Assembly: GCA_049298815.1 (NCBI GenBank)
Contig: JBAQWH010000603.1
Coordinates: 1-46,683 of the forward strand
Length of the DNA: 46,683 bases
Source: Thermoanaerobaculia bacterium
GTDB lineage: Bacteria; Acidobacteriota; Thermoanaerobaculia; Gp7-AA8
Direction: 5' to 3'
Shown here: positions 1 to 44,758 of the stretch, one piece after another
Numbering within the stretch: the first letter of the stretch is position 1
Layout of the letters: each line of letters opens with the position of its first letter
Made by a program: the position numbers and the translations under genes
Notes under the pieces: model-generated
Databases searched by the model: none
What the model was told of the DNA's origin: nothing
The model's input: only the letters and a program-made list of their open reading frames with translations

Positions 1-2
1 GG

Positions 3-407
3 CGAACCGTCATCCGCGACGCGGCGCCGGCAGGACCCGTCCGCGAGCCCGACCCGCTTGCCCGGGCTCTCATGGCGCGCTACAGCCACCACGTCCAGGA
101 GCGCCTCGGCGCCGTCTACCTCGATTCGCGCAACCGCATCCTGCGTGAGCGCGAGATCTACATCGGGACGGTGAACTCCGCGACGGTGTCGACACGAGAC
201 ATCCTTCGCCACGCGCTCGACGACCACGCCGCCGGCGTCATCGTCTTCCACAACCACCCCTCCGGCGATCCCGAGCCTTCGGCGGACGACCTCGTGTTCA
301 CGAGGAAGCTTGTCGAGGCCGGAAAGATCCTCGGCGTCACGATCGTCGACCACCTCATCCTCGGGTCCAACCGTTACGTCTCGCTCGAACAGCGGGGCAT
401 GCTGTGA
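3..407 (+). CDS. radC: RadC-like JAB/MPN domain protein, probably 5'-truncated by the window edge (internal ATG at 72)
   Basis: The translation carries the JAMM signature of the RadC family ('VIVFHNHPSGDPEPSADDLVFTRKLVEAGKILGVTIVDHLILG...RYVSLEQRG'). The frame stays open from nt 3 to the ATG at 72, and the residues upstream still look RadC-like. Confidence 0.85.
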   Translation, partial: RTVIRDAAPAGPVREPDPLARALMARYSHHVQERLGAVYLDSRNRILREREIYIGTVNSATVSTRDILRHALDDHAAGVIVFHNHPSGDPEPSADDLVFTRKLVEAGKILGVTIVDHLILGSNRYVSLEQRGML

Positions 408-413
408 CTTTCA

Positions 414-445
414 CGCGGGGCTGTTTGGCCCCGCGTTTCTTTATT
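414..445 (+). terminator. Rho-independent terminator after radC
   Basis: Hairpin CGCGGGGC-TGTTTG-GCCCCGCG (414-435) followed by TTTCTTTATT. It starts 7 nt after the TGA at 405-407. Confidence 0.7.
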
Positions 446-486
446 CATGGATCGGTTACCGGTGCAGTAGCCACCATCTACGCGTC

Positions 487-1905
487 TCACATGAAGTAGC
501 GGACGTGGTAGGGGTGCGGCGCGATCTGACCCACACGCTTCACGATGTCGGCAAGTGTATGGGCGAATCCGACAGTCACAGGCAAACGGTCGTACAGGGC
601 ATCGTTGTTCCAGTTCATTTTCGTCAGCCCCATGACGTAGCGCGCCGTGTCGACGAAATCACCATGGCCGGCGAATCGGCGCAGCAATATTGGGTGCGGA
701 ATGCCTTTACCTTCTTTGAAGTAGTTCGTGCCACCGGCAGCTTCTGGGGCATTCCCCTGTGTCCAGAGTAGACAATCGCGTCCGCCGAGCTGCAGCATCG
801 TCCCTCGGTCGCAGGGATATCCTGCCGGCATGTTCTTCCCTTCGATTTTCACGCCGATCCAGCCCGCGTCCTGTTGTATCTGGACGAGATCAAGTCCTGA
901 ATCCGAACTCCAAGCGTCGAAGCACCCCTCCACCTCGTCTGGCTTGAACTCCGTCGTCTTATGAACGACCAGGCGAACGGGGGTGCGTCCGGCGTGACGC
1001 TTCTGGTAGAGCGACAGACTTCGAGCAATGACGCGGCGCATGTCCGCCCGACTCAAAAAGGGATTGTCGCGTTCGACACGGACCTCGTCGGTCTCGTACG
1101 CCACGAACTCCAATCCAGCCCCGTCCGCGTCGAAGACCTGGCTGCAACATGTCACAAAGCGCCCGCCGCCCTGCTTCCGCAGGGCGTAGCTCAAGCCTAC
1201 GAACGCTACATCCTCGGCAGTTTCCGCCAGCTTCCACGGTACGCCGCCTGCCTTCACGTACAGAGCGATGCTCTGTCGCCACATGACACTGCACCGGCAC
1301 GGGTAGGCCAAGCCACGAGACTCACGGATCAATTGACATGGTAGGCCTCGCATTGCTGTGACCGCTTTGAGGTAGTCATGCAGATCAAAGTCGTCGCCTG
1401 GACCGCCAATGAACGCCGGAGCCCAACGATCAGGCAACGCGATCAACACCACGTCGAACTCGGTCCGCATCTGTTCGAGCGTGGCGAGCGCTTCGGTCAG
1501 CTTCTCCGCCAAGACAGCGTGCGGGTTTGCCGATGCCGAAATGGCCTGATCGACGTCCGCCGAGAGCCTGACATGCGCGCTCGCGGCAGCCTCCACGAGT
1601 CGAACACCGAACACGGTTGAGAACCCAGGGAAGGGAGGGAGGTACGCGAATCGTTCCCGGGGCTGATGCGCCTTCTGGAAGTCACGGAGGAACTGAGCCA
1701 CAGGGGCAGCCAGACTTGCGGGCGATATGGTCGCCACGCGGATCGGGTCGATGACACCTGCAAGGGCGGATCGTGAATACGGTCCGAACGCCAGCAGCCC
1801 CTTCAACGGGTGGACGTCCCGGTCTTCCGTTCGATCCGGATGGAATCGCAGGATGGGCTCTGCCAACCTGAGGTGCGGCACGAGCGTGGCAGGGTGTTTC
1901 GTCAT
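487..1905 (-). CDS. Short prokaryotic Argonaute (MID-PIWI only, predicted catalytically inactive)
   Basis: About 473 aa with no N/PAZ region. It has the Ago hallmark 'SIALYVKAGGVPWKL' and a MID pocket-like 'DLHDYLKA...CQLI'. The PIWI strand 'VAFVGLSYAL' lacks the catalytic Asp. The C-terminus is 'HPYHVRYFM'. The ATG at 1905 overlaps the upstream stop as ATGA (1902-1905). The longest ORF starts at TTG 1920. Confidence 0.88.
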   Translation of the reverse strand: MTKHPATLVPHLRLAEPILRFHPDRTEDRDVHPLKGLLAFGPYSRSALAGVIDPIRVATISPASLAAPVAQFLRDFQKAHQPRERFAYLPPFPGFSTVFGVRLVEAAASAHVRLSADVDQAISASANPHAVLAEKLTEALATLEQMRTEFDVVLIALPDRWAPAFIGGPGDDFDLHDYLKAVTAMRGLPCQLIRESRGLAYPCRCSVMWRQSIALYVKAGGVPWKLAETAEDVAFVGLSYALRKQGGGRFVTCCSQVFDADGAGLEFVAYETDEVRVERDNPFLSRADMRRVIARSLSLYQKRHAGRTPVRLVVHKTTEFKPDEVEGCFDAWSSDSGLDLVQIQQDAGWIGVKIEGKNMPAGYPCDRGTMLQLGGRDCLLWTQGNAPEAAGGTNYFKEGKGIPHPILLRRFAGHGDFVDTARYVMGLTKMNWNNDALYDRLPVTVGFAHTLADIVKRVGQIAPHPYHVRYFM

Positions 1906-3617
1906 GATTTCAGTCGCCAACTAAATGCAGAGACACGATTCAGAGTGAACGCCGCGTCGAGTCCGTCCCCAATACCAAATGCCGCCACGCGCAAGTCCTG
2001 CTCGCTCCCGAATAGGAGCGACAGCCAGGCGTCGAGCAGCCGCGAGTGCTTCGCGTTGTAGAGCTTCGCCGAAACCTCCCTCGCAAAGTCTTTGACGATC
2101 TGAGCGTCGCCGTCGTCGTTCGGGTGCTCTACGGTGAGTGTCGGTTCGAGCAACAGCCACACGCGCTCAAACCGCATGTCGAGTCGAATCTCGAGACTCG
2201 GCTCGCAACGGAGCGATGTTCTCGGGACGGTATCTCCGACTCCGAGGAGGGTTCGCAGGGCTCCTGCGCGAGCATCCGCATGCGGAAGCGTCAGCCGAAA
2301 CCGGCCACCACGCCGCGAGAGGTCGAGTTGTCGCGCGCGACCCAGCCCGCGAGCGAGAGCCTCGGAGAGCATCGACATTTCGATGGAGTCGTACGCGAGG
2401 CGACGCTTCTCAATCTGATGGACGTCGAACCGTGTGATGGTGAAAGGCTCAAACGTGCGGCGGACTTCGTCATCGCTGCCGAACGCGAGGACTCCAACGT
2501 TGCGTCGTCCACCCACGACGTTCGCATTCGCCGTCCGAATCGCTTCTTGGACATCGCGCTGCCCGCCGATATCACACACAACGAGCCGACATACTGACGG
2601 CAGCGAAGTGACGCCGAGTGCGTTCGTGCGCACGACGGGGTACGCACCCTGCCCCGAAGGGTGCGGGGCGAACGTCAGTCGTTCGGTCTTCTTCTCAATC
2701 TTCGCCGCAACATCATCCGGCACGGACGCGAACTGTCCCATGACGTCGCCGAGGAGTTCGTCGAACGTCTCAACCTCCACCTTGTGGGCGTCGATGCCCC
2801 GATCCGCGGCAGTAGCCAAAAGCGTGTCTACGCGCTCGAAGGTTATGCCGTCGGAGCGAACCATCCAGAACAGGCCGAACGGGAAGGCGCCCTTCTGCCG
2901 TGCCGCCTCCTCCAGGACGTCCATGATCGAATGATCACGGCCGCTATACCCGACGACGATCAATCCAAATCGCTTGGAGGCCTCACTGAGTGCGTGTCGC
3001 ATCGCCGCGTCCTGCGTACGCAGCTCTTCGGTCGTGTTCTTCAGTCGTTCTGACTGGAAGTCCCCGTGCAACTTGACCACCAATGGGAAGCTCTGATCGT
3101 TCAGAGCACGCAGTGCGACATCCGCGGATTCGATCGCCGCAACCGTGACCGCCGACGACCCGCCGAACATGTCGTACGCGGCATCTTCGACCACGCGGTC
3201 AAAGTTCGTCGTCCACACGACACGAGCCGCGTCCATGCGCATGAGCGCGGCGAGCCCCCGATGCCCGAAGGAGGGTCGCGCGCCTGTGAGCAAGCCACTT
3301 AGAGCCGTCCGTCGATCCTTCGCGTCGGGGTAGGCGAACTCGAAGAGTGATGCGTACTCATCGGCATCCCCCGCCTTCGGAAACCGGCCGGTTGCGTCCA
3401 AGTAACCTTGAATCCGCTGCCGAACCCCCGCATCGGCGAGGTCGCCGATTGCCGACAGCGACAACTTCTGCTCCGTCGCGTAGATCGAACGCTTGAAGGA
3501 CCACATCAGGTCGGTCGCCGTCGGGACGCGTGCGCCCGCTGACGCGCCAGCACCGAGGAACCACATAAGATTCTTCGATCGGAGCGGATAGACACGCAGG
3601 AACTCAGGAAGTCGCAT
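1902..3617 (-). CDS. SIR2-APAZ protein (NADase effector partner of short pAgo)
   Basis: SIR2 motifs 'FLGAGASAGARVPT', 'VWTTNFDRVVE', 'VVKLHGDF' and 'VVGYSGRD' occupy the N-terminal half. The C-terminal half is a ~300-aa non-SIR2 region. The gene is ATGA-coupled to the short pAgo downstream. Possible starts are ATG 3617 or GTG 3620, and both overlap the res stop at 3604-3606. Confidence 0.85.
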   Translation of the reverse strand: MRLPEFLRVYPLRSKNLMWFLGAGASAGARVPTATDLMWSFKRSIYATEQKLSLSAIGDLADAGVRQRIQGYLDATGRFPKAGDADEYASLFEFAYPDAKDRRTALSGLLTGARPSFGHRGLAALMRMDAARVVWTTNFDRVVEDAAYDMFGGSSAVTVAAIESADVALRALNDQSFPLVVKLHGDFQSERLKNTTEELRTQDAAMRHALSEASKRFGLIVVGYSGRDHSIMDVLEEAARQKGAFPFGLFWMVRSDGITFERVDTLLATAADRGIDAHKVEVETFDELLGDVMGQFASVPDDVAAKIEKKTERLTFAPHPSGQGAYPVVRTNALGVTSLPSVCRLVVCDIGGQRDVQEAIRTANANVVGGRRNVGVLAFGSDDEVRRTFEPFTITRFDVHQIEKRRLAYDSIEMSMLSEALARGLGRARQLDLSRRGGRFRLTLPHADARAGALRTLLGVGDTVPRTSLRCEPSLEIRLDMRFERVWLLLEPTLTVEHPNDDGDAQIVKDFAREVSAKLYNAKHSRLLDAWLSLLFGSEQDLRVAAFGIGDGLDAAFTLNRVSAFSWRLKS

Positions 3618-6330
3618 CACGAGAGCACGCCTGAGTTAGTGCCGCGAGTGTGGCGTTGCCATTCACCGCATCATGCGGGATGAGCAGGTAGCGCCAGGGC
3701 TTCCCGTCGATCGAGCCTTCGTGCTTCGAGGCACGCTCGCACCATGCGACGGCGGCCTTCGCCTTCGCCTCGACCTCAGGGTCGGTCATTTCGTTTGTCG
3801 CCTTGATCTCGCAGATGAGCTTCTCGTCGGCCGTCTCGACGACGAAGTCGGGGACGTACTCCTGGTCGCCGCGGCCGTAGCGGTAGAAGATCCGGAGGAT
3901 GCCGCTGCTCGGGCGGAACCACTTGTCGACGCTCTTCGTGTCTTCGAGGAGGACGGAGAAGCGGCGCTCCGTGTCGGAGTCGAACTTCGCGCTCTCGTAG
4001 AGCGCCTTCTGGAAGCCGGTGAAGAGCATCCCGCGGATGTACTGCTTGTCGTCGACGGGCGCGCGGAACGACCGCGGCGACTCCCCGGCGGGGAGCGAGA
4101 AGCTGCTCGGGCGGAGCGAGACAAAGCCCTTCGCGACCTTCACGTCGAGGTCGGACTGCGTTTCCCAGTAGTGCTCCTGCATCTGCGCGTGCACGAGCTC
4201 CGCGAGCGGGCGCTGGTAGTACTGGAGGACGTTCGTGACCTCGTCGTCATCCTTCAGATACGAGCGAAGGTGCGTGACGACCTGGCCGGCAAGCTTGTAG
4301 AGGAGTTCCGACTGGTCGTCATAGGAGATGTCGTCTTCCAGAACGAGTGGGCTCACGACGTAGTTCTCAAGACGAGGCTCCTGCGGTGCCATCCGTCCAG
4401 CGGTCAACGTGTCGCGCTTGTGGGTCTGCAGGTGTTGAATCAGGATGTCGTCATCCACCGGCTGGTACCTGAGGTTCGCGAGGTTCAGGTCGAAGTCCCG
4501 GAATCCGGAGGTGATCTCGCCCGTCGGTACGACGCTGATGCGCGGGATGTCGATCGTCTTCTCGGCACGTAGCGCCAGCGTCTTCTCCACGTCGGCCGCG
4601 ATGTCGGGCCTCTCCACGATGCCCTCGATGGTCTGCTGACCCGCGTTGTAGGCCTCAGTCACCTTCTGAATGATCTGCGCCTTGATCTCGGGTTTCTGAA
4701 GGTCACGCGAACTCGGCAGCCGTTCGAAGTCCTTCACGACGTCCATCGTGATCTTCGCCACCCGCTGCGATTCGATCGTCGGGAACGGGTGCTGCGCGGC
4801 GCCCTTGATGCCGAGTTGGGTCGCATTGGGTCTGTCTGCGATGACGCCCGTCTGGACGGACGGCGTGGGTGAGGGGCCGACGAGGACGTCAATCCACGGC
4901 TTCACCTCGACGCTCTGCTTCTTCTCGAGCGGAACGTGCGTCACGACGATGCCGCCACGAATCGCGGAGTCCGGCCGGTTCGCCTCGTCGACGATCTCCT
5001 GGAAGCGGTCGTGCGCGACGATGGTTAGGCGGTCGACGGCGGTGACCCCGACGCGCTTCGCGTACGGAAGCCGTAATCCCCGCCCGATCGACTGCTCGAC
5101 GAGCGTCTTCGAGTTCGCCGTGCGAAGCGGGACGATCGTGTAGAGGTTCGTGACGTCCCAGCCCTCCTTCAACATGTTCACGTGGATGACGATCTCGGTC
5201 TTTTCGTCCGGACTCTCGACCGCGAGGAGACTCGCGATGACCTCGTCCTTTTCCTCGCCCTTCTGGTTTGAGTGGACCGTGATGACCCGGTCGCGGTAGC
5301 GGCCCTCGAAGAACTGGTCCTCCTCGATGAGCTTCTGGAGCGCGTTCGCGTGCTCCGTGTCCTTCGCGACGACGAGCACGAACGGCTTCACGATTGGCTG
5401 GTCGTAGTTCCGCGCGTACGTTTCGAGCTCGACCTTCGTCGCCTCGTGGACGCGCACGCCGTCTTCGAGCTTCAGCCGTTCTAGCTGCTCGGGCGTATAC
5501 GCATCTGCGTTGAAGTTCTCGCGTGTCGCGACGGCCGGTTCTTTCACGAAGCCATCCGCAATCGCTTGCGAGAGCGGGTAGCTGTAGATGATGTTCTTGA
5601 ACGGGATCGGGGCCTTCGAGCCCTGCTCGACCTGCGGCGTCGCCGTCAGCTCGAGGCCGAGGATCGGCTTCAGCTCGTTCAGGACGCGGACGCCGGCCTC
5701 TGCGCGGTACCGGTGCGACTCGTCCATGATGAGCACGAGGTCGGGAAGGCCCGCGAGGTACTCGAAGTAGCTCGTCCCGATGTACTCCGCGAGCCGCTTG
5801 ATCTTCGGAGTCTTTCCGCCGCGCACCTCGGCGTTGATCTTCGAGATGTTGAAGATGTTGATGTGGACGTCGTCGAAGAGCGTCGTCTGGACCCGCGTCC
5901 CCTGACCCCGCTCGTAGTCATCGCCGGTGATGATGACCGGCGGGTTGTTCGCGAACTCCGAGATTCCGTTCAGCACGTACTTCGGATGTCCGGGCGTGAA
6001 GTCCCGAATGAGCTTGTTGTAGATCGTGAGGTTCGGCGCGAGGACGAAGAAGTGGCGGATGCCCTTCGTCTGGTAGAGATAAGCGATGAAGGCGCCCATG
6101 AGGCGCGTCTTGCCGACGCCCGTAGCGAGGGCAAAGCAGAGCGACGGGAACTCGCGCTCGAAGTCCTCGACCGACGGATACTCGGACCGGATGATGTCGA
6201 GCGCCGCCGTCACGTCCGTGTCCTTCGCCGGCGGAACGATCTCTGTCACCCGCGCTAGGATCTCGAGCGCGTCGCGCTGCGGCGGGCGGAGGCTCAGGCG
6301 ACCGCTGATGGAGTTCACGTGACGGTTCAT
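3604..6330 (-). CDS. res: Type III restriction enzyme Res subunit (SF2 helicase plus C-terminal nuclease)
   Basis: Helicase motifs 'LATGVGKTRLMG', 'LIMDESHRY', 'LELTATP' and 'GRGLRL', plus a C-terminal PD-(D/E)xK-like 'YVPDFVVE...LICEIKA'. ATG 6330 overlaps the mod stop (ATGA 6327-6330). The 53 extra N-terminal codons in the ORF track lie inside mod and are Arg/Gly-rich. Confidence 0.85.
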   Translation of the reverse strand: MNRHVNSISGRLSLRPPQRDALEILARVTEIVPPAKDTDVTAALDIIRSEYPSVEDFEREFPSLCFALATGVGKTRLMGAFIAYLYQTKGIRHFFVLAPNLTIYNKLIRDFTPGHPKYVLNGISEFANNPPVIITGDDYERGQGTRVQTTLFDDVHINIFNISKINAEVRGGKTPKIKRLAEYIGTSYFEYLAGLPDLVLIMDESHRYRAEAGVRVLNELKPILGLELTATPQVEQGSKAPIPFKNIIYSYPLSQAIADGFVKEPAVATRENFNADAYTPEQLERLKLEDGVRVHEATKVELETYARNYDQPIVKPFVLVVAKDTEHANALQKLIEEDQFFEGRYRDRVITVHSNQKGEEKDEVIASLLAVESPDEKTEIVIHVNMLKEGWDVTNLYTIVPLRTANSKTLVEQSIGRGLRLPYAKRVGVTAVDRLTIVAHDRFQEIVDEANRPDSAIRGGIVVTHVPLEKKQSVEVKPWIDVLVGPSPTPSVQTGVIADRPNATQLGIKGAAQHPFPTIESQRVAKITMDVVKDFERLPSSRDLQKPEIKAQIIQKVTEAYNAGQQTIEGIVERPDIAADVEKTLALRAEKTIDIPRISVVPTGEITSGFRDFDLNLANLRYQPVDDDILIQHLQTHKRDTLTAGRMAPQEPRLENYVVSPLVLEDDISYDDQSELLYKLAGQVVTHLRSYLKDDDEVTNVLQYYQRPLAELVHAQMQEHYWETQSDLDVKVAKGFVSLRPSSFSLPAGESPRSFRAPVDDKQYIRGMLFTGFQKALYESAKFDSDTERRFSVLLEDTKSVDKWFRPSSGILRIFYRYGRGDQEYVPDFVVETADEKLICEIKATNEMTDPEVEAKAKAAVAWCERASKHEGSIDGKPWRYLLIPHDAVNGNATLAALTQACSRDATS

Positions 6331-8009
6331 TTCGTGGGGGCGATATCGAAGAGCGAGAGGGAGTCCTCCGTCGCGCTCTTCTTCGCCTTTCCTTTCGCGG
6401 ATTTCGCGGGAGGCTCGTCGTCTGCCACGCCGAGGTCCGCCGCCGCGGGAAGATTCTTGATCTGGAGGCTGTAGTCGTCGCGGCCCCACTCGCAGCGCGA
6501 GAGCACCGCGTGCGGGATCTTCTTGATCGTGAGGTTGGCGAAGGCGTCGGGTTTCGCGCGGAAGGCGGCGCAGCAGACGAGGAGCGTCCGCCCCTCGCCG
6601 ACTTCATCGCTCAGGGACTGAAGCTGATCGCGCGTGAGCTTCTGCGTCGTGACGTAGATGAAGTCGCGTTCCGTGGAGTAGCCCTGCTGCCAGTAGATGT
6701 CCGTCGGCGCGTACGTGAAGCCTTCGAGCTTGCAGACGGCCTCGGCGAGCATGTCGGCGTTGTAGCCCTTGTTGATGACCGGGTTGCCCCACTTGTCCTT
6801 CTCGATGAGGGACGAAGCGAGCTTGAAGTAGCGGAAGCCGCCTCCGCCCTTCCAATCGACGGCTTCGGTAATGCCTCCTGCATCGGTACCGTCGACGACC
6901 TTACGAAGGCGCGGAACAATGTGCGTCTTCGCGTGCTCGCCGAGTTCCACCATGATCCAGCGGCGGCCCATTTTGTGAGCAACGGCCCCCGTGGTCCCAG
7001 ATCCCGCGAACGAGTCCAGAACAATGTCACCTGGATCAGATGCGATGTGGATGATCCGCTGAAGCAGACGCTCAGGCTTCGGCGTAGAGAAGATGTCATC
7101 CCGACCAAAGATGCGGGTCACTTCTTGCTTAGCTTCTCGATTGTTCCCAACTTCCTCGTGCGACCAGACAGTAGTGGGCACCAATTCGCCCAACTCGGAA
7201 CGGAAACGCTTTCTGAAGGGAAAGGTCTTTCCAGTCTTTCCCCACCAGAGCCGGTTGTCGGCCGCAAGACCATAGAATGTCTCTCTTGAGATGCTCCACC
7301 ACCGGTTCGCACGAGGAGCGAACACGTCACCATGCGGTCCGGTGACCTCATATTTGCCGTCGGCGTACGACTTCGAAGCCGTTAGATCCGAGCGCCGCCA
7401 ATCCCCTCGTGGGTCAGAATCAGGATTCCAGAAGTCGGCATCGCTTGCTTCCGTCCGCCCAACCTTGTTGCGGCGCCAGCTCTCAATCTCTTTCGCATAC
7501 ACAAGAATGAAGTCGTGATCGGCAGAGAAAAACTGAGCGGAGTTGTTACGGGCGTGCAGCTTCTGCCAAATGACGGTCGCAACGAAGTTTCGGCGTCCAA
7601 ACACCTCGTCCAGGAGCACCTTCAGGTAGTGCCCTTCATTGTCATCGATATTGATCCAAATGCTTCCGTCATTGCGCAGTGTGCGACGAAGCAGTTCGAG
7701 GCGGTCCCGCATCAAGGACAGCCAAAGCGAATGCTCGATTCCGTCGTCATAGTGTTCAAACGCTGAGCCGGTGTTGTACGGCGGATCAATGTACACACAC
7801 CTCACTTTGCCAGTGAACTCCTGCTCCAAAGCCTTCAGAGCGAGTAGGTTGTCCCCGAAGATGAGACGGTTGTCGAAGATGTCGTTAGGTCCGACTCGAT
7901 GCGCGGCGTGGTACGACAGCTCAGGATCTTCCAACAGGATGCGCGGCTCGAGACGAGGCCGCTGATCCTTTCCGATCCACTGCAGTTCGAGTTTCTGATT
8001 CCTGGCCAT
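6327..8009 (-). CDS. mod: Type III DNA methyltransferase Mod (beta-class N6-adenine/N4-cytosine MTase)
   Basis: Motif IV 'VYIDPPYNTG' precedes motif I 'VLDSFAGSGTTG'. The N-terminus 'MARNQKLELQWIGK' is typical of Type III Mod. An AAGGA Shine-Dalgarno lies 5 nt upstream of ATG 8009. Confidence 0.9.
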   Translation of the reverse strand: MARNQKLELQWIGKDQRPRLEPRILLEDPELSYHAAHRVGPNDIFDNRLIFGDNLLALKALEQEFTGKVRCVYIDPPYNTGSAFEHYDDGIEHSLWLSLMRDRLELLRRTLRNDGSIWINIDDNEGHYLKVLLDEVFGRRNFVATVIWQKLHARNNSAQFFSADHDFILVYAKEIESWRRNKVGRTEASDADFWNPDSDPRGDWRRSDLTASKSYADGKYEVTGPHGDVFAPRANRWWSISRETFYGLAADNRLWWGKTGKTFPFRKRFRSELGELVPTTVWSHEEVGNNREAKQEVTRIFGRDDIFSTPKPERLLQRIIHIASDPGDIVLDSFAGSGTTGAVAHKMGRRWIMVELGEHAKTHIVPRLRKVVDGTDAGGITEAVDWKGGGGFRYFKLASSLIEKDKWGNPVINKGYNADMLAEAVCKLEGFTYAPTDIYWQQGYSTERDFIYVTTQKLTRDQLQSLSDEVGEGRTLLVCCAAFRAKPDAFANLTIKKIPHAVLSRCEWGRDDYSLQIKNLPAAADLGVADDEPPAKSAKGKAKKSATEDSLSLFDIAPTK

Positions 8010-8065
8010 TCAGTCCTTACAAGTAGGGCGTTCCGTCAGCGAAAACTGTACAGGCTTTGCGAGGC

Positions 8066-10888
8066 TCATGCGAGCGTCCAGCGCACCGTGAAGAGCTCTC
8101 TCGTCGAAACGCGCTGCTGGAGCTGCCGCTCGATCTCGCCGATGAGGGTGTCGCGCTTCTCGTCGATCGTGTCCTGGGCGTCGAAGAGCTCCGCCCGCTT
8201 TTTCTTCTTCTTCCCATCGAGTTCCTTCAGCTTCTTCTGGCCGGCGAGCTTCTCTGCGAGCGTGCCGCTCCCCGCCGTCGCCCGGCGGATGTCGCGGATC
8301 TCCCGATCCAGTTCCTTCAGCTCCTGCTCAAGGCCGAACTTCAGGTCCTCGGCCCACAGTTCGAGCTTCGCGACCTCTTCGTCGAAGTGCTTCGCATTCC
8401 GCGACTCAACGGACGCGACGTGCTCAGCGACGCGCGCCTTCGTCGCGTCGTCGAGCGCGCCAGTCGGCGTCGCGGCGGAGGCGTCCCCGCCGACCTTCGC
8501 GTCGAGTGCGAAGAGCTTGCGCGCGAGGTCCTCGTCGAGAAGCAGTCCGTCGTCGCTCGCGGCGATGACGTCGAGCCGGTCCTCCGCTTCGAGCGAGGTG
8601 ATCGTCGTCTTCACGACGCGCAGCCATCCGCTCTTCCCGATGAACGGCTCAAGCGCGCTGATCTTCGCGCCGTAGCCCGAGAGGTCGAACCGGACGTGCG
8701 CTAACGGAAGGTTGCGCTCCGCAGCGCGCTCAATGAGGGTCCTCGCGAGCGGATGATCCGCGCGGTAGAAGATCTCGTTCGCCGCCTCGGCACTCTTCCA
8801 GTCGAAGTTGTACGTTCCCGCAGGGGCGATTGCGCCGCGGTAGCGGAAGCGATTGCCGTCCCACTCGGCGTCGCCGTCGAGCTCCGCGTGCGTGAGGTCG
8901 CGGAGCAGTTCCTGGTGCGCGGTGAGCGCACGTTCCGACTCCGCCATCCGGAGCCTGATCCGCGCGTGGACGTCGACGTCGAAGTTCTCGAGGAGGTTCT
9001 TCCGCGTCTCGTCCATCCTCGACGCGATCTGTTCGTCGAGTTCGGCCTGGATCTTGTCGAACGCCGTCTGGATCTCCTCGGCGGTGCGGCACTCCTGGTA
9101 CACCTGTGCGATGCGCCGCTCGATGTCGACGCCGGATTCCAGTGCGCCGAGGACCTCGTCGCTCGCGCCGAACACGCCGTCGAAGAGCTTGAACTTCTCC
9201 GCGAGGAGCTTGTAGACGCGCTGATCCGCTTCGTTGCGCTTGTTCAAAAAGTTCACGACGACGACGTCGTGCTTCTGGCCGTAGCGGTGGCAGCGGCCGA
9301 TGCGCTGCTCGATGCGCTGCGGGTTCCACGGGAGGTCGTAGTTCACGACCAGGGAGCAGAACTGGAGGTTCACGCCTTCGGCCGCCGACTCCGTCGCGAT
9401 GAGGAGCGTCGCGCGGTCGCGGAACTCCTCGACGATCGCGGCCTTCGTGTCGGCCGACTTCGAGCCGGAGATGAGGTCGGAGTTCGCGTGCCGCTGCTTC
9501 CATGCTTCGTAGATCGCACGGGAGCCGGGGTCCGTGTTCGTCCCGTTCATGAGGACGATCTCTCCGGCGTAGCCCTGCTTGCCGAGGAAGTCCTGCAGGT
9601 ACGCCTGCGTGCGGCGGGACTCCGTGAAGATCACGGCCTTCCGCGGCGCGCCGAGGTCCGCGGCCTTCCGGAACGCGGCGTCGAGGGCTTTCAGGAGCGC
9701 GTCACCCTTCGCGTTGTGGTGGATCTCCTCGGCGAGCGCGGCGTACGTCCGGAGCTCCCCGAGCTCCTGCTTCAGTGATGCGCGATCGATCACGAGCTCG
9801 TCGCCGTTCTCGTTCTCCGTCCACTCGTCCTCGAGTTCCTTGATCGCCTCGAAGTCTTCCTCGTCGAACGGTCGGATCTCCTTCTCCATCGCTTCGAGCC
9901 GCTTGATGAGGCTCCGTAGCGTCCCGGCGATCGCGAAGGTCGACGACGCGAGGAGCCGGCGGAGGATGAGCGTCATGAGCGTGCGCTGGCTCGCGGGGAG
10001 CGCATGGAGCACCTCGCGCTGGAGGTACGCCGAGACCTGCTCGTAGAGCTGGTGTTCCTTCTCGGACGGCAAGAACTCCTGCGTGATCGGGACGCGCTGC
10101 GTGAAGCGGATGTACTCGAGGACCTGCCTGCGGAGTGTCCGGCGACAGAGCTGCGTGAGCCGCCGCTTCAGCTCCGTGTTCCGCGCGACTTCGTCGTTCC
10201 CGCGGAGGAACTGCTCGCGAAAGGAGATCGGGTCGCCGAACACGTGCTCGTCGATGACGGAGACCAGGCCGTAGAGCTCCATGAGGGAGTTCTGGAGCGG
10301 TGTCGCGGTGAGGAGCACCGTCGGCCGCCCCTTGATCGCCCCGACGATCGCGTTCGCCATCTTGTTCTGGGGCTTGTAGACGTTCCGGAGGCGGTGCGCC
10401 TCGTCGATGACGACGAGGTCCCAATCGACCTGCCTCACTTCTTTCGCTTTGGCAGAAACGAAGTGATACGAGGCGATCACGATCCGGCCGAGAAGATCGA
10501 ACGGATTTCCCGGCCAGAGTTTTCTCGCCGCATTGAAGTTCGCGGATTCGAGGATCGTCGTCGGGATCGAGAACTTCTCCTCGATCTCCTGCTGCCACTG
10601 CTTCCGGAGCGTCGCTGGGACGATGAGGAGGATCTTCCGCTTCCGCTCGGCCCACCGCTGCGCGATGACGATCCCCGCCTCGATCGTCTTCCCGAGGCCG
10701 ACCTCGTCGGCGAGGAGGACGCCCTTCGTGAAGGGCGAGCGGACGGCGAAGAGCGCCGCGTCGACCTGGTGCGGGTTCAGGTCGACCCGGGCGTTCGCCA
10801 TCGAGCGCGAGAGGTTCTCGACCGTCCCGGGAGGGCCTTGCAGGGTCAGGGCATGCGCCCAGTAGGCGCTATGGAAGGGGGTCTTCAT
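8066..10888 (-). CDS. SNF2-family helicase with a long coiled-coil C-terminal extension
   Basis: Motifs 'LLADEVGLGKTIEAG' (I), 'LVVIDEAHRLRN' (II), 'LLTATPLQNS' (III) and 'GVNLQ...YDLPWNPQRIEQRIGRCHRYGQK' (V-VI). There is a ~330-aa C-terminal extension ending in a Lys/Glu-rich coiled coil. Confidence 0.88.
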   Translation of the reverse strand: MKTPFHSAYWAHALTLQGPPGTVENLSRSMANARVDLNPHQVDAALFAVRSPFTKGVLLADEVGLGKTIEAGIVIAQRWAERKRKILLIVPATLRKQWQQEIEEKFSIPTTILESANFNAARKLWPGNPFDLLGRIVIASYHFVSAKAKEVRQVDWDLVVIDEAHRLRNVYKPQNKMANAIVGAIKGRPTVLLTATPLQNSLMELYGLVSVIDEHVFGDPISFREQFLRGNDEVARNTELKRRLTQLCRRTLRRQVLEYIRFTQRVPITQEFLPSEKEHQLYEQVSAYLQREVLHALPASQRTLMTLILRRLLASSTFAIAGTLRSLIKRLEAMEKEIRPFDEEDFEAIKELEDEWTENENGDELVIDRASLKQELGELRTYAALAEEIHHNAKGDALLKALDAAFRKAADLGAPRKAVIFTESRRTQAYLQDFLGKQGYAGEIVLMNGTNTDPGSRAIYEAWKQRHANSDLISGSKSADTKAAIVEEFRDRATLLIATESAAEGVNLQFCSLVVNYDLPWNPQRIEQRIGRCHRYGQKHDVVVVNFLNKRNEADQRVYKLLAEKFKLFDGVFGASDEVLGALESGVDIERRIAQVYQECRTAEEIQTAFDKIQAELDEQIASRMDETRKNLLENFDVDVHARIRLRMAESERALTAHQELLRDLTHAELDGDAEWDGNRFRYRGAIAPAGTYNFDWKSAEAANEIFYRADHPLARTLIERAAERNLPLAHVRFDLSGYGAKISALEPFIGKSGWLRVVKTTITSLEAEDRLDVIAASDDGLLLDEDLARKLFALDAKVGGDASAATPTGALDDATKARVAEHVASVESRNAKHFDEEVAKLELWAEDLKFGLEQELKELDREIRDIRRATAGSGTLAEKLAGQKKLKELDGKKKKKRAELFDAQDTIDEKRDTLIGEIERQLQQRVSTRELFTVRWTLA

Positions 10889-11028
10889 GTCTGTGGTTGT
10901 CGGGCGACCGCGCCGAGCTACCTTGAGAGAATGCCCTGAATCGCGTCGGGACGCCAGACGGAGACGTATGGGCGCGTCGACAGCGCGCCCGGGCGTGTGG
11001 TTCTCTTGAACGGAACCCTGCCTTCGCC

Positions 11029-12507
11029 ATGACTCCCACCGACCTCGCGAACTACGTCCGCTGCCCCCACCGCGTCTTCCTGGACAAGCACGGGGATCCG
11101 GCCGCGAAACTGCCTCCGAACGCCTTTACGGAGCTCCTGTGGGCCGGAGGGCTGTCCCACGAAGCGACCATCATCGACGGCCTCGAGGTCGCGACCGTGG
11201 ACACGACTCTGTCGTATCCGGAACGGGCCGCCGCGACGCACGCGCTCATGGCGCAAGGCGTCGCCGCGATCTACCACGGGATCCTCATCCTCGACGACCT
11301 GCGCGGCGAACCGGATCTCCTCGTGCGCTCCGACCGGCTCGTCACGGAGTTCGGGGCGTACGGCTACAACCCGGTCGACGTGAAGAACGGGAAGGCATTC
11401 TCAGACGCGAAGAAGTCGAAACCGAAGGCACCGTATGCAATGCAGCTCTGCGCGTACGCCGAGATGCTCCAGTTCGTGCAGGGCTGCCGACCGCCCATCG
11501 GGCAGATCATCGATGCCGACGGTGTGTGGAACTCGTACGACCTCGACGCCTTCTGGCCGGAGTACGAGCGGCTGCGCGATGAAGCGGTGGCGACGATCAA
11601 GAGGACGAAGACGACGGAGCCGGGCTGGCAGGCGGCGTGTGCGTCGTGCGCGTGGCAGCAGCACTGCTGGGCGCAGCTCGTCGCGACGGACGACCTCACG
11701 ACCGTCGACGGCGTCGGCGCGAGCTACAAGGAGCGTCTCTACACGATCGGGGTGCGGACGGCGAGCGAGCTTGCCGCGGCCGACCCAGAGACGCTCGTCG
11801 GGGTGAAGGGCATCAAGCTCGCGCGGGCGCAGGTCTGGACGCGAAAGGCGCGCGTGCAGAAGAGCGGGAGTCCCCTCTTCCTCCAAACGTGGACGCCGCC
11901 GGACGTCGACTTCGAGGTGTCGTACGACATCGAGGACTACTCGCTCGATCCGTACGTCTACCTCCACGGACTCCTCGTCCGACCGCGTGGCGCACGCCTC
12001 TTCGGGAGCGACGCCCACACGGACGCGGACTTCGGCACCTTCGAGCCCGTCTGCGCGACGTGGCCCGAGACGGAGGAGGCGGTGTGGAACGCGTTCCTCG
12101 CCAAGGTCGCCGACATCGACGCCCGGGGAACATACGTCGTCTACGTCTACTCGCACCACGAACGGACGACGTTGAAGCGCCTCGCCGCAAAGTACGGAAC
12201 CTCGGACGCACTCGACCGGTTCGTGAAGGCGTTCGTCGATCTCGAGCGCGTCATGAAGCGATCCGTCGTGATGCCCACCGACAGTTCGTCCTTAAAGGCG
12301 TACGCACGGTTCGCCGGCTTCAACTGGCGCGACGAGGATCCCGGCGGCTCGCAGAGCCTCGCGTGGTGGAACGCGTACTGGACGGACGCCGCCGCGAAGG
12401 CAGAGCTACGCGAACGCGTGATCCGCTACAACGAAGACGACGTCCGCGCAAGCTTCGTCGTGCGGGACTGGCTCGCGCGAACCAGCACTGCGTCAGGTTC
12501 GACTTAG
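11029..12507 (+). CDS. TM0106-family RecB/Cas4-like nuclease with a C-terminal RNase H-like exonuclease domain
   Basis: The N-terminus is 'DLANYVRCPHRVFLD'. The PD-(D/E)xK-like core is 'EPDLLVR...YNPVDVKNGK'. Cys12 plus 'CASCAWQQHC' resemble a Cas4-type Fe-S cluster. The C-terminal 'YDIEDYS...YVYSHHERT...YNEDDV' resembles a DEDD exonuclease. Confidence 0.7.
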   Translation: MTPTDLANYVRCPHRVFLDKHGDPAAKLPPNAFTELLWAGGLSHEATIIDGLEVATVDTTLSYPERAAATHALMAQGVAAIYHGILILDDLRGEPDLLVRSDRLVTEFGAYGYNPVDVKNGKAFSDAKKSKPKAPYAMQLCAYAEMLQFVQGCRPPIGQIIDADGVWNSYDLDAFWPEYERLRDEAVATIKRTKTTEPGWQAACASCAWQQHCWAQLVATDDLTTVDGVGASYKERLYTIGVRTASELAAADPETLVGVKGIKLARAQVWTRKARVQKSGSPLFLQTWTPPDVDFEVSYDIEDYSLDPYVYLHGLLVRPRGARLFGSDAHTDADFGTFEPVCATWPETEEAVWNAFLAKVADIDARGTYVVYVYSHHERTTLKRLAAKYGTSDALDRFVKAFVDLERVMKRSVVMPTDSSSLKAYARFAGFNWRDEDPGGSQSLAWWNAYWTDAAAKAELRERVIRYNEDDVRASFVVRDWLARTSTASGST

Positions 12508-14820: not shown

Positions 14821-15687
14821 CTACGCGGAGGCGGCGCGGAGGAGACGCTCGAGGATGACGCCCTTGAGGCTCGCCGGATCCGCCTTCGGCAGCAATACGC
14901 GGATCGCCGCGCGGCCGAGTTCCTCCTTGAGACGCGCAGCCGCTTCGTCGCCCGACGAGTCGTGATCGAAGAGGATGCAGACCCGCGAGAAGCGACTGAG
15001 GAGCGCGCGCTGCGCTGCGGTGATCCGGCAGCCGAGCGATGCAACCACATGCGGAAAGCCGACCTGGAACACGCCGAGCGCGTCGAAGATGCCTTCGACG
15101 AGGATGACGGTCTCCGCGCCGGAAGCCTTCACCCGGTGCAGGTTGAAGAGGAGCTCACGACGGCGAACGCCGCGCTGGAAGCAGTAGCGGGGTTCGACGG
15201 CGTCATCGACGGCACGGCCGATGTGGCCGACGAGGGTGCCGTCTGGAGCGTGGAGCGGCGCGATGATCCGTCCGCCGAGCGGAGGCCGGCCGCGGAAGTA
15301 GCCGAGTCCGAAGTGCCGCGCCGTCGCCTCGTGGATCCCCCGCTCGAGGAAGTACGGATGCGTGGGATCGAGCGGCGTGAGCGGGACGACCGGCCCAATG
15401 CGTTCGGGACGTTCGTGGGCAGTTGGGCGGACGACGTCGAGCGGATCCTCTCCACGCATCCGCGCGACGAACTCCTCGATGCTCCCGCCCTCCCCGCACG
15501 CGAAGCAGAAGAAGCCGCGACCGGGGGTGAGCGCGAACGAGGAGACCCGCGTTCCGTGATGGAGCGGGCATGGCCCGCGCCACTGCGAGCCGTGCCAGGT
15601 GAGGTCGAGGCGGAACTCCTCGATGAGGTTCTCCCATGCTTCACGCGTCACGGGAGTCTCCGATGCCGACAAACCTCCGACGGTCAT
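14821..15687 (-). CDS. DnaG-like primase-related protein (CHC2 zinc finger plus TOPRIM)
   Basis: CHC2 finger 'CPLHHGTRVSSFALTPGRGFFCFACGEGG'. TOPRIM Glu in 'VILVEGIFDAL' and DxD in 'ILFDHDSSGDEAA'. The start is ATG 15687, with alternatives GTG 15651 and the track start 15735. All of them overlap the end of the upstream ATPase gene. Confidence 0.75.
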   Translation of the reverse strand: MTVGGLSASETPVTREAWENLIEEFRLDLTWHGSQWRGPCPLHHGTRVSSFALTPGRGFFCFACGEGGSIEEFVARMRGEDPLDVVRPTAHERPERIGPVVPLTPLDPTHPYFLERGIHEATARHFGLGYFRGRPPLGGRIIAPLHAPDGTLVGHIGRAVDDAVEPRYCFQRGVRRRELLFNLHRVKASGAETVILVEGIFDALGVFQVGFPHVVASLGCRITAAQRALLSRFSRVCILFDHDSSGDEAAARLKEELGRAAIRVLLPKADPASLKGVILERLLRAASA

Positions 15688-23307: not shown

Positions 23308-23384
<77 letters not shown>

Positions 23385-44709: not shown

Positions 44710-44758
44710 GATCTGCTCCCTGTTCGGATTTCTGTTCATGTCTGGCGTCTGCTGCGGA

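What the first reader, a model, noticed from the sequence alone, without database searches (positions are those of the whole stretch)
487..3620. SIR2-APAZ plus short pAgo operon (SPARSA-type Argonaute immune module)
Seen in the sequence: a 572-aa protein carries SIR2 motifs (GAGAS, TTNFD, LHGD) in its N-terminal half and has a long non-SIR2 C-terminal half. It is ATGA-coupled (1902-1905) to a ~473-aa MID-PIWI-only Argonaute. The Argonaute PIWI strand 'FVGLSYAL' lacks the catalytic Asp.

Established knowledge: the short-pAgo/SIR2-APAZ pairing is the architecture shown to deplete NAD+ after guide-dependent recognition of invader nucleic acid, an abortive-infection type of immunity.

Inference: both genes are intact here and therefore probably functional.
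Basis: partly seen in the sequence, partly recalled or inferred. Interest (0 to 1): 0.7.

Follow-up and report, generated by a model that had tools for sequence, protein, structure and literature searches.

The report
Sir2-APAZ plus short Argonaute defence pair
This is an intact but ordinary new copy of a known bacterial immune module, in which a small Argonaute detects invading DNA and its Sir2 partner destroys the cell's NAD+; here it sits directly behind a Type III restriction-modification system on an acquired genomic island.

Summary
The finding is confirmed. On the minus strand, 1902-3617 encodes a 571-aa SIR2-APAZ protein. It matches the PADLOC model Aga_SIR2-PNTD1-PNTD2 at E 8e-168 over its full length. 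Bases 487-1905 encode a 472-aa MID-PIWI-only Argonaute (PADLOC pAgo_I, E 3e-185, full length). The two genes overlap in ATGA at 1905-1902.

The closest solved structures are the Geobacter sulfurreducens SPARSA (GsSir2/Ago) subunits, at E 4e-113 and 6e-75. AlphaFold models match the same complex. The Sir2 NAD-site and catalytic residues, the HK-type MID 5'-phosphate pocket and the C-terminal Met are all conserved. The PIWI Asp positions are replaced.

In 78 of 80 related genome loci a SIR2-APAZ gene lies directly upstream of the pAgo. Comparison with an 83%-identical relative indicates strong purifying selection.

It is a new member of a known kind. Identity to the characterised Gs system is 44% (pAgo) and 33% (SIR2-APAZ).

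Features specific to this copy:
- Tyr replaces the Gs Arg190 that reads guide base 2.
- The Gs tetramer-interface residues are not conserved.
- All four genes, Type III mod, res, sir2-apaz and pago, are joined by overlaps.

NADase activity and protection are inferred, not shown.

The parts
1902..3617 (-). sir2-apaz gene, 571 aa from ATG 3617 (GTG 3620 is one codon upstream; stop 1904-1902)
   Evidence: ORF. PADLOC Aga_SIR2-PNTD1-PNTD2, E 8.4e-168, residues 13-568 on model 3-555/558. GsSir2-APAZ (8in8_B/8jkz_A), E 6e-75 over residues 6-540. Homologues are 571 aa.
2688..3617 (-). SIR2 NADase domain, about residues 1-310. Contains GAGAS 22-26 (3540-3554), N138 (3204-3206), H184 (3066-3068) and D228 (2934-2936)
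   Evidence: Pfam SIR2_2, E 2.5e-15. The residues equal GsSir2 N142/H186/D230/A26/A37 and are invariant in 64 family members. Foldseek finds ThsA and DSR2 Sir2 domains after SPARSA.
1905..2630 (-). APAZ region, about residues 330-571, after a low-confidence linker at 319-330
   Evidence: Aligned to the GsSir2 APAZ region. In the AF2 model (pLDDT 83), this half matches the APAZ-only chain 8in8_B with TMt 0.80 and rmsd 3.0, then the TIR-APAZ chains of SPARTA.
1902..1905 (-). ATGA overlap: the sir2-apaz stop TGA overlaps the pago start ATG
   Evidence: Read directly. The same 4-nt overlap occurs in most of 78 related loci.
487..1905 (-). short pAgo gene, 472 aa, MID-PIWI only (stop 489-487)
   Evidence: PADLOC pAgo_I, E 3.1e-185, residues 7-472 on model 4-457/457. 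GsAgo (8in8_C), E 3.7e-113 over residues 6-472. AF2 model matches 8jkz_B with TM 0.85.
1252..1380 (-). MID 5'-phosphate pocket, HK type: H176, K180, Q191, K218. Also Y201 at the position of GsAgo R190
   Evidence: Mapped on GsAgo H166/K170/Q181/K207. Invariant in alignments A1 and of 72 family members. Codons checked.
955..1203 (-). PIWI segments where catalytic Asp residues would lie: FVGLSYAL (235-242; S239) and H315-K316-T317
   Evidence: Same residues as GsAgo S228 and H306-K307-T308. The GsAgo PIWI is described as inactive in PMC11452484 and bioRxiv 10.1101/2021.12.14.472599. A weak hhalign result puts GLSY opposite GADV of human AGO2.
3604..3617 (-). 14-nt overlap between the end of the Type III res gene and the start of sir2-apaz
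   Evidence: Sequence GTGATGCGACTTCCTGA. The same 14-nt overlap is present in the 83% relative L001.
3604..6330 (-). context: Type III restriction subunit (res), 908 aa from ATG 6330
   Evidence: PADLOC REase_III, E 5e-226; Pfam ResIII and Helicase_C. The ATGA overlap with the mod gene at 6330-6327 was read.
6327..8009 (-). context: Type III DNA methyltransferase (mod), 560 aa, with AAGGA 4 nt before the ATG
   Evidence: PADLOC MTase_III, E 1.1e-220; Pfam N6_N4_Mtase, E 8e-48. Sequence read.
413..436 (.). G+C-rich hairpin, 10 pairs, between the convergent RadC and pago genes, 51 nt after the pago stop
   Evidence: Terminator scan. The T-run is on the + strand only, so it is a canonical terminator for RadC and only a possible one for the pago transcript.

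Best explanation
The two genes encode a SPARSA-type (Sir2/Ago) abortive-infection module. This is the split arrangement: a separate SIR2-APAZ gene followed by a short pAgo gene, as in G. sulfurreducens GsSir2/Ago.

The mechanism below is inferred from the Gs system.
1. The 571-aa SIR2-APAZ and the 472-aa catalytically dead MID-PIWI Argonaute form a 1:1 heterodimer. In it, APAZ supplies the N/L1/L2-like lobe.
2. The MID pocket (H176/K180/Q191/K218, plus the C-terminal carboxylate and a metal ion) holds the 5'-phosphate of a short guide RNA. The guide derives from highly transcribed or invading DNA.
3. Pairing of the guide with complementary invader ssDNA triggers oligomerisation.
4. Oligomerisation positions Sir2 H184 next to N138. 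NAD+ is hydrolysed, and the infected or transformed cell dies or stops growing, which protects the population.

Shown here: gene integrity, domain content, conservation of the functional residues, conserved gene pairing, and purifying selection. Inferred: complex formation, guide type, activation and NAD+ depletion.

The pair is expressed as the distal end of a string of overlap-joined genes, mod-res-sir2apaz-pago, on a horizontally acquired island.
For: - **Profile matches.** Full-length matches to the SIR2-APAZ and short pAgo class I models, E 8e-168 and 3e-185.
- **Closest solved structures.** The closest chains by sequence are the Gs SPARSA subunits, E 3.7e-113 and 6e-75. The next Argonaute hit scores 101 bits against 382 bits.
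- **Predicted folds.** Best matches are SPARSA chains: TM 0.85 for pAgo, E 7e-43 for the whole SIR2-APAZ, and TMt 0.80 for the APAZ half.
- **Sir2 residues.** N138, H184, D228, A23 and A34 correspond to GsSir2 N142, H186, D230, A26 and A37. Mutating each of those abolishes activity or NAD+ binding (PMC11452484; bioRxiv 10.1101/2021.12.14.472599). They are invariant in 64 family members.
- **pAgo residues.** The MID HK-type pocket and the terminal Met are invariant or nearly so.
- **Gene pairing.** A SIR2-APAZ gene lies immediately upstream in 78 of 80 GTDB loci, mostly with the same 4-nt overlap.
- **Selection.** dN/dS is 0.086 for SIR2-APAZ. For pAgo, dN is 0.116 with dS saturated, measured against the 83% relative.
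- **Setting.** The pair sits among other defence genes: a Type III R-M system, a DrmD-like helicase and an OLD nuclease.
Against: - **No experiment.** Nothing has been tested in the laboratory.
- **Distance from the characterised system.** Identity to Gs is only 44% for pAgo and 33% for SIR2-APAZ.
- **Tetramer interface.** GsSir2 Y168, Q192 and R296, which are needed for activation in Gs, are D, E and G here and vary across the family. The oligomer interface may therefore differ.
- **Guide reading.** GsAgo R190, which reads guide base 2, is Tyr here.
- **Expression signals.** No sigma-70-like promoter was found in 1-11200, and there is no clear Shine-Dalgarno sequence before either gene. Expression seems to depend on upstream genes.
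- **Alternative gene call.** A database gene call of 520 aa (P0121) would remove the GAGAS loop if it were the true start.
- **PIWI inactivity.** It is shown only by homology and by a non-significant alignment (E 0.078).
Confidence: 0.85

Rival explanations
1. The pair is one arm of a functionally integrated four-gene system with the Type III R-M enzyme. For example, restriction or translocation by Res could generate or expose the nucleic acids that pAgo loads or senses, or the Abi arm could back up restriction. On this reading it is not an autonomous module that merely sits next to R-M.
For: - All three junctions are overlaps: ATGA at 6330-6327, 14 nt at 3617-3604, and ATGA at 1905-1902.
- The same order and the same overlaps are kept in L001, although synonymous sites are saturated.
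- Relatives at 70-71% identity sit inside Type I operons in the order hsdM-sir2apaz-pago-hsdS.
- At least 10 of 80 wider relatives have R-M genes within 8 kb.
Against: - GsSir2/Ago and CcSir2/Ago work alone in E. coli (bioRxiv 10.1101/2021.12.14.472599).
- Most relatives (about 70 of 80 loci, plus L004 and L085) have no adjacent R-M system.
- The R-M partner is of two unrelated types.
- Embedding unrelated defence genes in R-M clusters is a known general pattern (PMC11411939).
Confidence: 0.1
2. The module uses the same mechanism but serves the mobile island rather than the host. It would exclude competing plasmids or other elements, or stabilise the island, instead of acting mainly against phage.
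For: - The pair lies in a lower-GC segment: 0.62 against 0.66 for the chromosomal part.
- That segment carries RadC, a Replic_Relax protein and other mobile or defence genes, and ends near tRNA-Met.
- L001 carries the same cassette next to relaxase-like genes.
- GsSir2/Ago blocks CloDF13/ColE1-type plasmids (PMC11452484).
Against: No integrase, conjugation genes or island repeats were identified in the window. GsSir2/Ago also protects against phages (bioRxiv 10.1101/2021.12.14.472599). The two roles are not mutually exclusive.
Confidence: 0.04
3. The genes look intact but the module is silent or inactive in this host. It might not be transcribed, might be a recently acquired passenger, or might use the truncated 520-aa SIR2 start.
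For: - No promoter-like site was found.
- An alternative 520-aa gene call exists.
- The Gs oligomer-interface residues are not conserved.
Against: - Purifying selection is strong and all catalytic residues are kept.
- 571-aa homologues align from residue 1.
- The promoter scan covers only a sigma-70 consensus in an unknown host.
Confidence: 0.01

Closest known systems
Geobacter sulfurreducens GsSir2/Ago (SPARSA); PDB 8IN8, 8JKZ, 8JL0, 8Y7Z, 8Y80, 8Y82
   Same: - Two overlapping genes in the order sir2-apaz then pago.
- The same domain layout over the full length of both proteins.
- Sir2 N/H/D catalytic and NAD-site residues, the HK-type MID pocket, S and H-K-T at the PIWI positions, and the C-terminal Met.
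   Different: - Identity is 44% (pAgo) and 33% (SIR2-APAZ).
- GsAgo R190 is Tyr here, and in all 72 relatives examined.
- GsSir2 tetramer-interface residues Y168, Q192 and R296 are D, E and G here.
- GsSir2 APAZ residues Y530 and F532 are K and Y here.
- The gene overlap is 4 nt here against 11 nt in Gs.
- Here the pair follows a Type III R-M system.
SPARTA (TIR-APAZ + short pAgo; e.g. CrtSPARTA, MapSPARTA)
   Same: Short inactive pAgo with an APAZ partner. The logic is the same: a guide RNA and target ssDNA activate an NADase. The pAgo fold matches at TM 0.75-0.8, and the APAZ half matches TIR-APAZ chains.
   Different: The effector domain is TIR, not SIR2. Sequence similarity is far lower: 76-86 bits against 382 bits for GsAgo.
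SPARDA / SPARHA (nuclease-APAZ + short pAgo)
   Same: The short pAgo fold is similar, TM about 0.8. By sequence these are the second-best PDB hits, at 88-101 bits.
   Different: The effector is a DREN/HNH nuclease that forms filaments. No nuclease domain is present here.
Fused SIR2-APAZ-pAgo (e.g. Paraburkholderia graminis PgSir2-Ago)
   Same: The same three modules. The PADLOC fused models (PDLC02420, PDLC02384) match both proteins, at E 4e-83 and 2e-102.
   Different: There the modules form a single polypeptide. Here there are two genes, and the split-type models score much higher.
Thoeris ThsA and DSR2 Sir2 NADases
   Same: Sir2 fold with the catalytic Asn/His pair. Foldseek matches the Sir2 half at E 1e-6 to 1e-8. 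PADLOC gives a weak ThsA hit.
   Different: They have different sensors (SLOG/cADPR, or phage tail tube protein). They have no APAZ domain and no Argonaute partner.

Membership tests
SPARSA / Sir2-Ago short pAgo system (split type) | The Argonaute consists of MID and PIWI only, with no N or PAZ domains | tested here: met
   472 aa. End-to-end alignment to the 473-aa GsAgo and to the 457-position PADLOC pAgo_I model. The fold matches short pAgo chains at TM 0.85.
SPARSA / Sir2-Ago short pAgo system (split type) | The PIWI domain lacks the DEDX catalytic tetrad | tested here: met
   S239 and H315-K316-T317 are identical to GsAgo S228 and H306-K307-T308. The GsAgo PIWI is reported inactive (PMC11452484). 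The strand FVGLSYAL has no acidic residue.
SPARSA / Sir2-Ago short pAgo system (split type) | HK-type MID pocket for the guide 5'-phosphate, and a free conserved C-terminus | tested here: met
   H176, K180, Q191 and K218 are invariant in A1 and in 72 relatives. The terminal Met is kept in 68 of 72.
SPARSA / Sir2-Ago short pAgo system (split type) | The partner protein has an N-terminal SIR2 domain and a C-terminal APAZ domain | tested here: met
   PADLOC Aga_SIR2-PNTD1-PNTD2, E 8e-168. Pfam SIR2_2. GsSir2-APAZ, E 6e-75. The AF2 APAZ half matches 8in8_B at TMt 0.80.
SPARSA / Sir2-Ago short pAgo system (split type) | Sir2 catalytic and NAD-binding residues (Gs N142, H186, D230, A26, A37) | tested here: met
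   N138, H184, D228, A23 and A34 (571-aa numbering) are all present and are invariant in 64 relatives.
SPARSA / Sir2-Ago short pAgo system (split type) | The two genes are adjacent, co-directional and overlapping (one operon) | tested here: met
   ATGA overlap at 1905-1902. The same arrangement is found in 78 of 80 related loci.
SPARSA / Sir2-Ago short pAgo system (split type) | The pAgo belongs to the Sir2-associated short pAgo clade rather than to the SPARTA or SPARDA clades | tested here: met
   Tested by best hits only: GsAgo scores 382 bits, against at most 101 bits for SPARDA, SPARTA and SPARHA pAgos. No tree with reference sets was built.
SPARSA / Sir2-Ago short pAgo system (split type) | Stable 1:1 heterodimer of the two proteins | not testable with these tools
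   No complex prediction or experiment was available.
SPARSA / Sir2-Ago short pAgo system (split type) | Oligomerisation and NADase activation dependent on guide RNA and target ssDNA | not testable with these tools
   The Gs tetramer-interface residues Y168, Q192 and R296 are not conserved here, so the interface cannot be assumed to be identical.
SPARSA / Sir2-Ago short pAgo system (split type) | NAD+ depletion and protection against phage or plasmid in vivo | not testable with these tools
   This needs an experiment.
Type III restriction-modification (neighbouring genes) | A Mod methyltransferase plus a Res helicase-nuclease, adjacent and co-directional | tested here: met
   PADLOC MTase_III, E 1e-220, and REase_III, E 5e-226. 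Pfam N6_N4_Mtase, ResIII and Helicase_C. ATGA overlap at 6330-6327.

The most novel reading that the evidence does not exclude
The Sir2/Ago pair and the Type III R-M enzyme may form one co-translated four-gene unit whose arms cooperate. For example, Res translocation or cleavage could supply or expose the ssDNA or RNA that the Argonaute senses, so that NAD+ depletion fires only when restriction is engaged or has failed. The same logic might apply to the relatives embedded in Type I operons (hsdM-sir2apaz-pago-hsdS).
Probability: 0.08. Interest if true: 0.6.

Novelty: new member of a known kind. Interest (0 to 1): 0.2.

Why it matters
It adds one more intact, selectively maintained SPARSA module from an uncharacterised high-GC bacterium. 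Standard defence-system annotation (PADLOC) would find it automatically, so it changes nothing conceptually.

There are two modest points of value.
- It belongs to a large subfamily. More than 2,300 pAgo clusters match at E<=1e-20, and at least 545 loci were found in species-representative genomes. In every member examined, a Tyr sits where GsAgo uses Arg190 to read guide base 2. The subfamily also lacks the Gs Sir2 tetramer contacts. Guide preference and the activation interface worked out for Gs may therefore not transfer to it.
- In this clade the pair is repeatedly wired in-line into R-M operons. This gives a clean natural case for testing whether restriction and Argonaute-triggered abortive infection cooperate.

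Tried and rejected
- **Pfam on the pAgo.** It gave no hit at E<=0.01. This is a limit of the Pfam Piwi model for short pAgos, not evidence against the assignment. PADLOC, PDB and fold searches all agree.
- **Direct proof of DEDX loss.** Only a non-significant 52-column alignment resulted (E 0.078). I treat it as a lead only.
- **PDB alignments to an active long pAgo.** The PDB search lists an active long pAgo (CpAgo) at rank 11. Alignments can be printed only for the top 5, so that route was closed.
- **Promoter and terminator scan.** No promoter-like site was found in 1-11200. The hairpin after pago has its T-run on the other strand, so the transcript ends remain undefined.
- **Rfam.** It found nothing but the tRNA. 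There is no known RNA element in or near the pair.
- **Source organism.** The genome scan did not find the source organism. The best genome hit is a 70%-identical pAgo in a Gammaproteobacteria MAG. I ran no further search on taxonomy.
- **Plasmid collection.** Relatives there are at most 52% identical and are annotated only as hypothetical protein or 'nuclease PIN'.
- **Plus-strand ORFs inside 487-3620** (for example 2046-2597 and 961-1344). I considered them and dismissed them as the usual antisense ORFs of high-GC coding DNA. The minus-strand frames are under strong purifying selection.
- **A different SIR2 chemistry** (deacetylase or ADP-ribosyltransferase). I rejected this because the closest relatives by sequence and fold are all NADase effectors.

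Full report
**Observation**

The minus strand of 487-3620 carries two long ORFs.

- **Upstream ORF.** It runs 1902-3620 (572 aa) if read from GTG 3620. The next codon is ATG 3617, and the closest homologues are 571 aa and align from residue 1. I therefore use the 571-aa form.
- **SIR2 motifs.**
- **Downstream ORF.** It runs 487-1905 (472 aa from ATG). An upstream TTG at 1920 would add five residues, but homologues are 472-474 aa.
- **Overlap.** The stop of the first gene and the start of the second overlap in ATGA at 1905-1902.
- **PIWI strand.** 'FVGLSYAL' is pAgo residues 235-242 and has no acidic residue.

**What the proteins are**

Against PADLOC-DB, the first protein matches Aga_SIR2-PNTD1-PNTD2 (SIR2-APAZ) at E 8.4e-168 over 13-568 of the protein and 3-555 of 558 model positions. 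The second matches pAgo_I at E 3.1e-185 over 7-472 and 4-457 of 457.

Pfam finds SIR2_2 in the N-terminal half of the first protein and nothing in the pAgo. This is a known weakness of the Piwi model on short pAgos.

Among solved structures, the best sequence matches are the two chains shared by entries 8IN8, 8JKZ, 8JL0, 8Y7Z, 8Y80 and 8Y82. The pAgo scores E 3.7e-113 (382 bits, residues 6-472). The SIR2-APAZ scores E 6e-75 (residues 6-540). These entries are the Geobacter sulfurreducens SIR2-APAZ/Ago (SPARSA) complex (PMC10474274, PMC10781750, PMC11452484). The next Argonaute hits are SPARDA, SPARHA and SPARTA pAgos at 101 bits or less.

AlphaFold2 models were built with family alignments, giving pLDDT 73 for the pAgo and 83 for SIR2-APAZ.

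- The pAgo model matches the SPARSA pAgo at TM 0.85.
- The SIR2-APAZ model matches full-length SPARSA Sir2-APAZ at E 7e-43. The global TM is only 0.49 because the two domains are placed arbitrarily in a monomer model.
- The APAZ half matches the APAZ-only chain 8in8_B at TMt 0.80 and rmsd 3.0.
- These are followed by the TIR-APAZ chains of SPARTA, and by ThsA and DSR2 Sir2 domains.

**Functional residues**

I mapped the Gs residues through the HMMER alignments and through a MAFFT alignment with 64 (SIR2-APAZ) and 72 (pAgo) relatives taken from the fetched loci. Numbering is 571-aa for SIR2-APAZ and 472-aa for pAgo.

| Gs residue | Here | Role in Gs |
|---|---|---|
| GsSir2 N142, H186 | N138, H184 | catalytic (PMC11452484) |
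| GsSir2 D230 | D228 | NAD+ binding (bioRxiv 10.1101/2021.12.14.472599) |
| GsSir2 A26, A37 | A23, A34 | cofactor loop |
| GsAgo H166, K170, Q181, K207 | H176, K180, Q191, K218 | my motif-based assignment to the HK-type MID pocket (the paper names the type, not the positions) |
| GsAgo F158 | F165 | stacks on the flipped guide base 1 (PMC10474274) |
| GsAgo S228, H306-K307-T308 | S239, H315-K316-T317 | the positions I assign to the two catalytic Asp by motif comparison with human AGO2 |

The Sir2 residues above are invariant in all 64 relatives. K180, Q191 and K218 are invariant in 72 relatives, and H176 in 71. The terminal Met is kept.

My attempt at a direct alignment to human AGO2 placed GLSY opposite GADV but was not significant (E 0.078).

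**Differences from Gs**

- Identity is 43.7% for pAgo and 32.8% for SIR2-APAZ.
- GsAgo R190, which orients guide base 2 and is used to explain the 5'-AU bias (PMC10474274, PMC10781750), is Tyr201 here. It is Tyr in all 72 relatives.
- GsSir2 Y168, Q192 and R296, the tetramer contacts needed for activation (PMC11452484), are D, E and G here and vary across the family.
- GsSir2 APAZ residues Y530 and F532 are K and Y here.

**Is it maintained?**

The pAgo family is large. There are 2,388 clusters at E<=1e-20 among the candidates scored, and the nearest relative is 83% identical. At least 545 loci were confirmed in species-representative genomes across many phyla.

In 78 of the 80 loci fetched, a SIR2-APAZ ORF lies immediately upstream on the same strand, usually with a 4-nt overlap. 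A few of these are split across frames. One locus is cut by a contig end. One (L005) keeps only a C-terminal remnant of SIR2-APAZ.

Against the 83% relative (L001), SIR2-APAZ has dN 0.214, dS 2.48 and dN/dS 0.086. The pAgo has dN 0.116 with dS saturated. Neither gene has an internal stop. The genes are therefore intact and under purifying selection.

**Surroundings**

The pair is the distal end of a string of four minus-strand genes joined by overlaps.

- Type III mod is at 6327-8009 (PADLOC MTase_III, E 1e-220).
- It overlaps in ATGA at 6330-6327 with Type III res at 3604-6330 (REase_III, E 5e-226).
- res overlaps sir2-apaz by 14 nt (3617-3604).
- sir2-apaz overlaps pago in ATGA.
- The mod gene has an AAGGA 4 nt before its ATG and lies 56 nt after a DrmD-like SNF2 helicase at 8066-10888.
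- No sigma-70-like promoter was found in 1-11200.
- A 10-pair hairpin at 413-436 separates pago from a convergent RadC/JAB gene at 72-407. Its T-run is on the RadC side.

Further along are several other genes:

- a Cas4-like/RNase_H_2 protein;
- a Replic_Relax protein;
- an OLD-family nuclease;
- a tRNA-Met at 23308-23384.

Beyond these lie housekeeping genes (POR, aminotransferase, PEPCK). GC is 0.62 for the pair and the R-M genes, against 0.66 for 24.5-46.7 kb. This is a defence-rich, probably acquired island.

**R-M linkage in relatives**

- L001 (83%) has the same mod-res-sir2apaz-pago-RadC order and the same overlaps.
- Relatives at 70-71% (L002/L003/L028 and L086/L087) have the pair inserted in a Type I operon in the order hsdM-sir2apaz-pago-hsdS. 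In L002 this is followed by DarT, a Macro-domain protein and hsdR.
- L004 (75%) and L085 (72%) have no R-M neighbour.
- About 10 of the 80 wider loci have Type I hits within 8 kb, and one has a Type III pair.

Embedding other defence genes inside R-M clusters is a described general pattern (PMC11411939). I read this as defence-island packing and give true functional coupling a low probability.

**Mechanism and verdict**

The best explanation is a SPARSA-type abortive-infection module that works as in Gs:

1. The two proteins form a heterodimer.
2. A 5'-P guide RNA sits in the MID pocket.
3. Recognition of complementary ssDNA drives oligomerisation.
4. Oligomerisation aligns the Sir2 His with the Asn, and NAD+ is hydrolysed.

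Only the sequence-level prerequisites are shown here. Complex formation, guide type, the activation interface and NAD+ depletion are inferred. The altered interface and the Tyr201 substitution mean that details may differ from Gs.

This is a new member of a known kind and would be picked up by routine defence-system annotation, so its interest is low.

Noticed in passing
window 487-8009 (-); L001 3897-11419: Type III mod, Type III res, sir2-apaz and pago form one string joined only by overlaps: ATGA at 6330-6327, 14 nt at 3617-3604, and ATGA at 1905-1902. The same order and overlaps are kept in the 83%-identical relative, although synonymous sites are saturated.
   Followed up: partly
L002 6283-17567 (same contig as L028); L003; L052; L086/L087: In relatives with 70-71% identical pAgo, the pair is inserted inside a Type I R-M operon (hsdM-sir2apaz-pago-hsdS). 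In L002 and L052 a DarT gene also sits before hsdR, and in L002 it is followed by a Macro-domain gene (only L002/L003 had called genes with Pfam hits). About 10 of 80 wider relatives have Type I genes within 8 kb, and L072 has a convergent Type III pair.
   Followed up: partly
window 23308-23384 (-): tRNA-Met (ARAGORN and Rfam). It lies at the transition between the defence/mobile gene block (GC about 0.62-0.64) and chromosomal genes (GC about 0.66), so it may be an island integration site. No integrase or flanking direct repeat was searched for.
   Followed up: no
window 8066-10888 (-): A 940-aa SNF2 helicase lies 56 nt upstream of mod. Its best PADLOC hit is DrmD of DISARM (E 1e-211), with hits also to BrxH and HmaA. 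No other DISARM, BREX or Hma genes were seen next to it. L001 carries a 943-aa counterpart.
   Followed up: no
window 20905-22881 (+): A 658-aa OLD-family nuclease (AAA_15 plus OLD-like TOPRIM; PADLOC Old E 9e-57, with hits also to AriA and GajA). No obvious partner gene was checked.
   Followed up: no
window 11029-12507 (+) and 14821-15735 (-): A 492-aa protein with RNase_H_2 and HHH_5 domains and weak Cas4 hits. A 304-aa ORF has weak matches to the primase-like part of DRT/UG29 models (E 4e-21). Their functions were not pursued.
   Followed up: no
window 1902-3617 (-); protein P0121: The public gene call for this SIR2-APAZ is 520 aa, missing the first 51 residues including the GAGAS NAD-binding loop. 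571-aa homologues that align from residue 1 indicate that the call is too short, probably because of the overlap with res.
   Followed up: yes
L005 7756-9398: An intact pAgo (58% identical) is preceded only by a remnant of the SIR2-APAZ C-terminus (residues 504-568). This is either an orphaned short pAgo or a decaying locus.
   Followed up: partly
pAgo residue 239 (window 1189-1191); alignment of 72 relatives: At the position I take to be that of the first PIWI catalytic Asp, 12 of 72 relatives have Asp instead of Ser. The H-K-(T/S/N) segment at the position I take to be the second Asp stays non-acidic in all of them.
   Followed up: no
window 24504-29870 (-) and 39856-44919 (-): Two giant ORFs. 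One is a 1788-aa protein with about 19 FG-GAP repeats plus DUF11 and fn3 domains. The other is a 1687-aa protein with almost no Pfam signal.
   Followed up: no
window 72-407 (+): The RadC/JAB ORF here is only 111 aa (JAB domain only). The RadC in the same position in L001 is 228 aa. It may be N-terminally truncated or cut by the start of the window.
   Followed up: no
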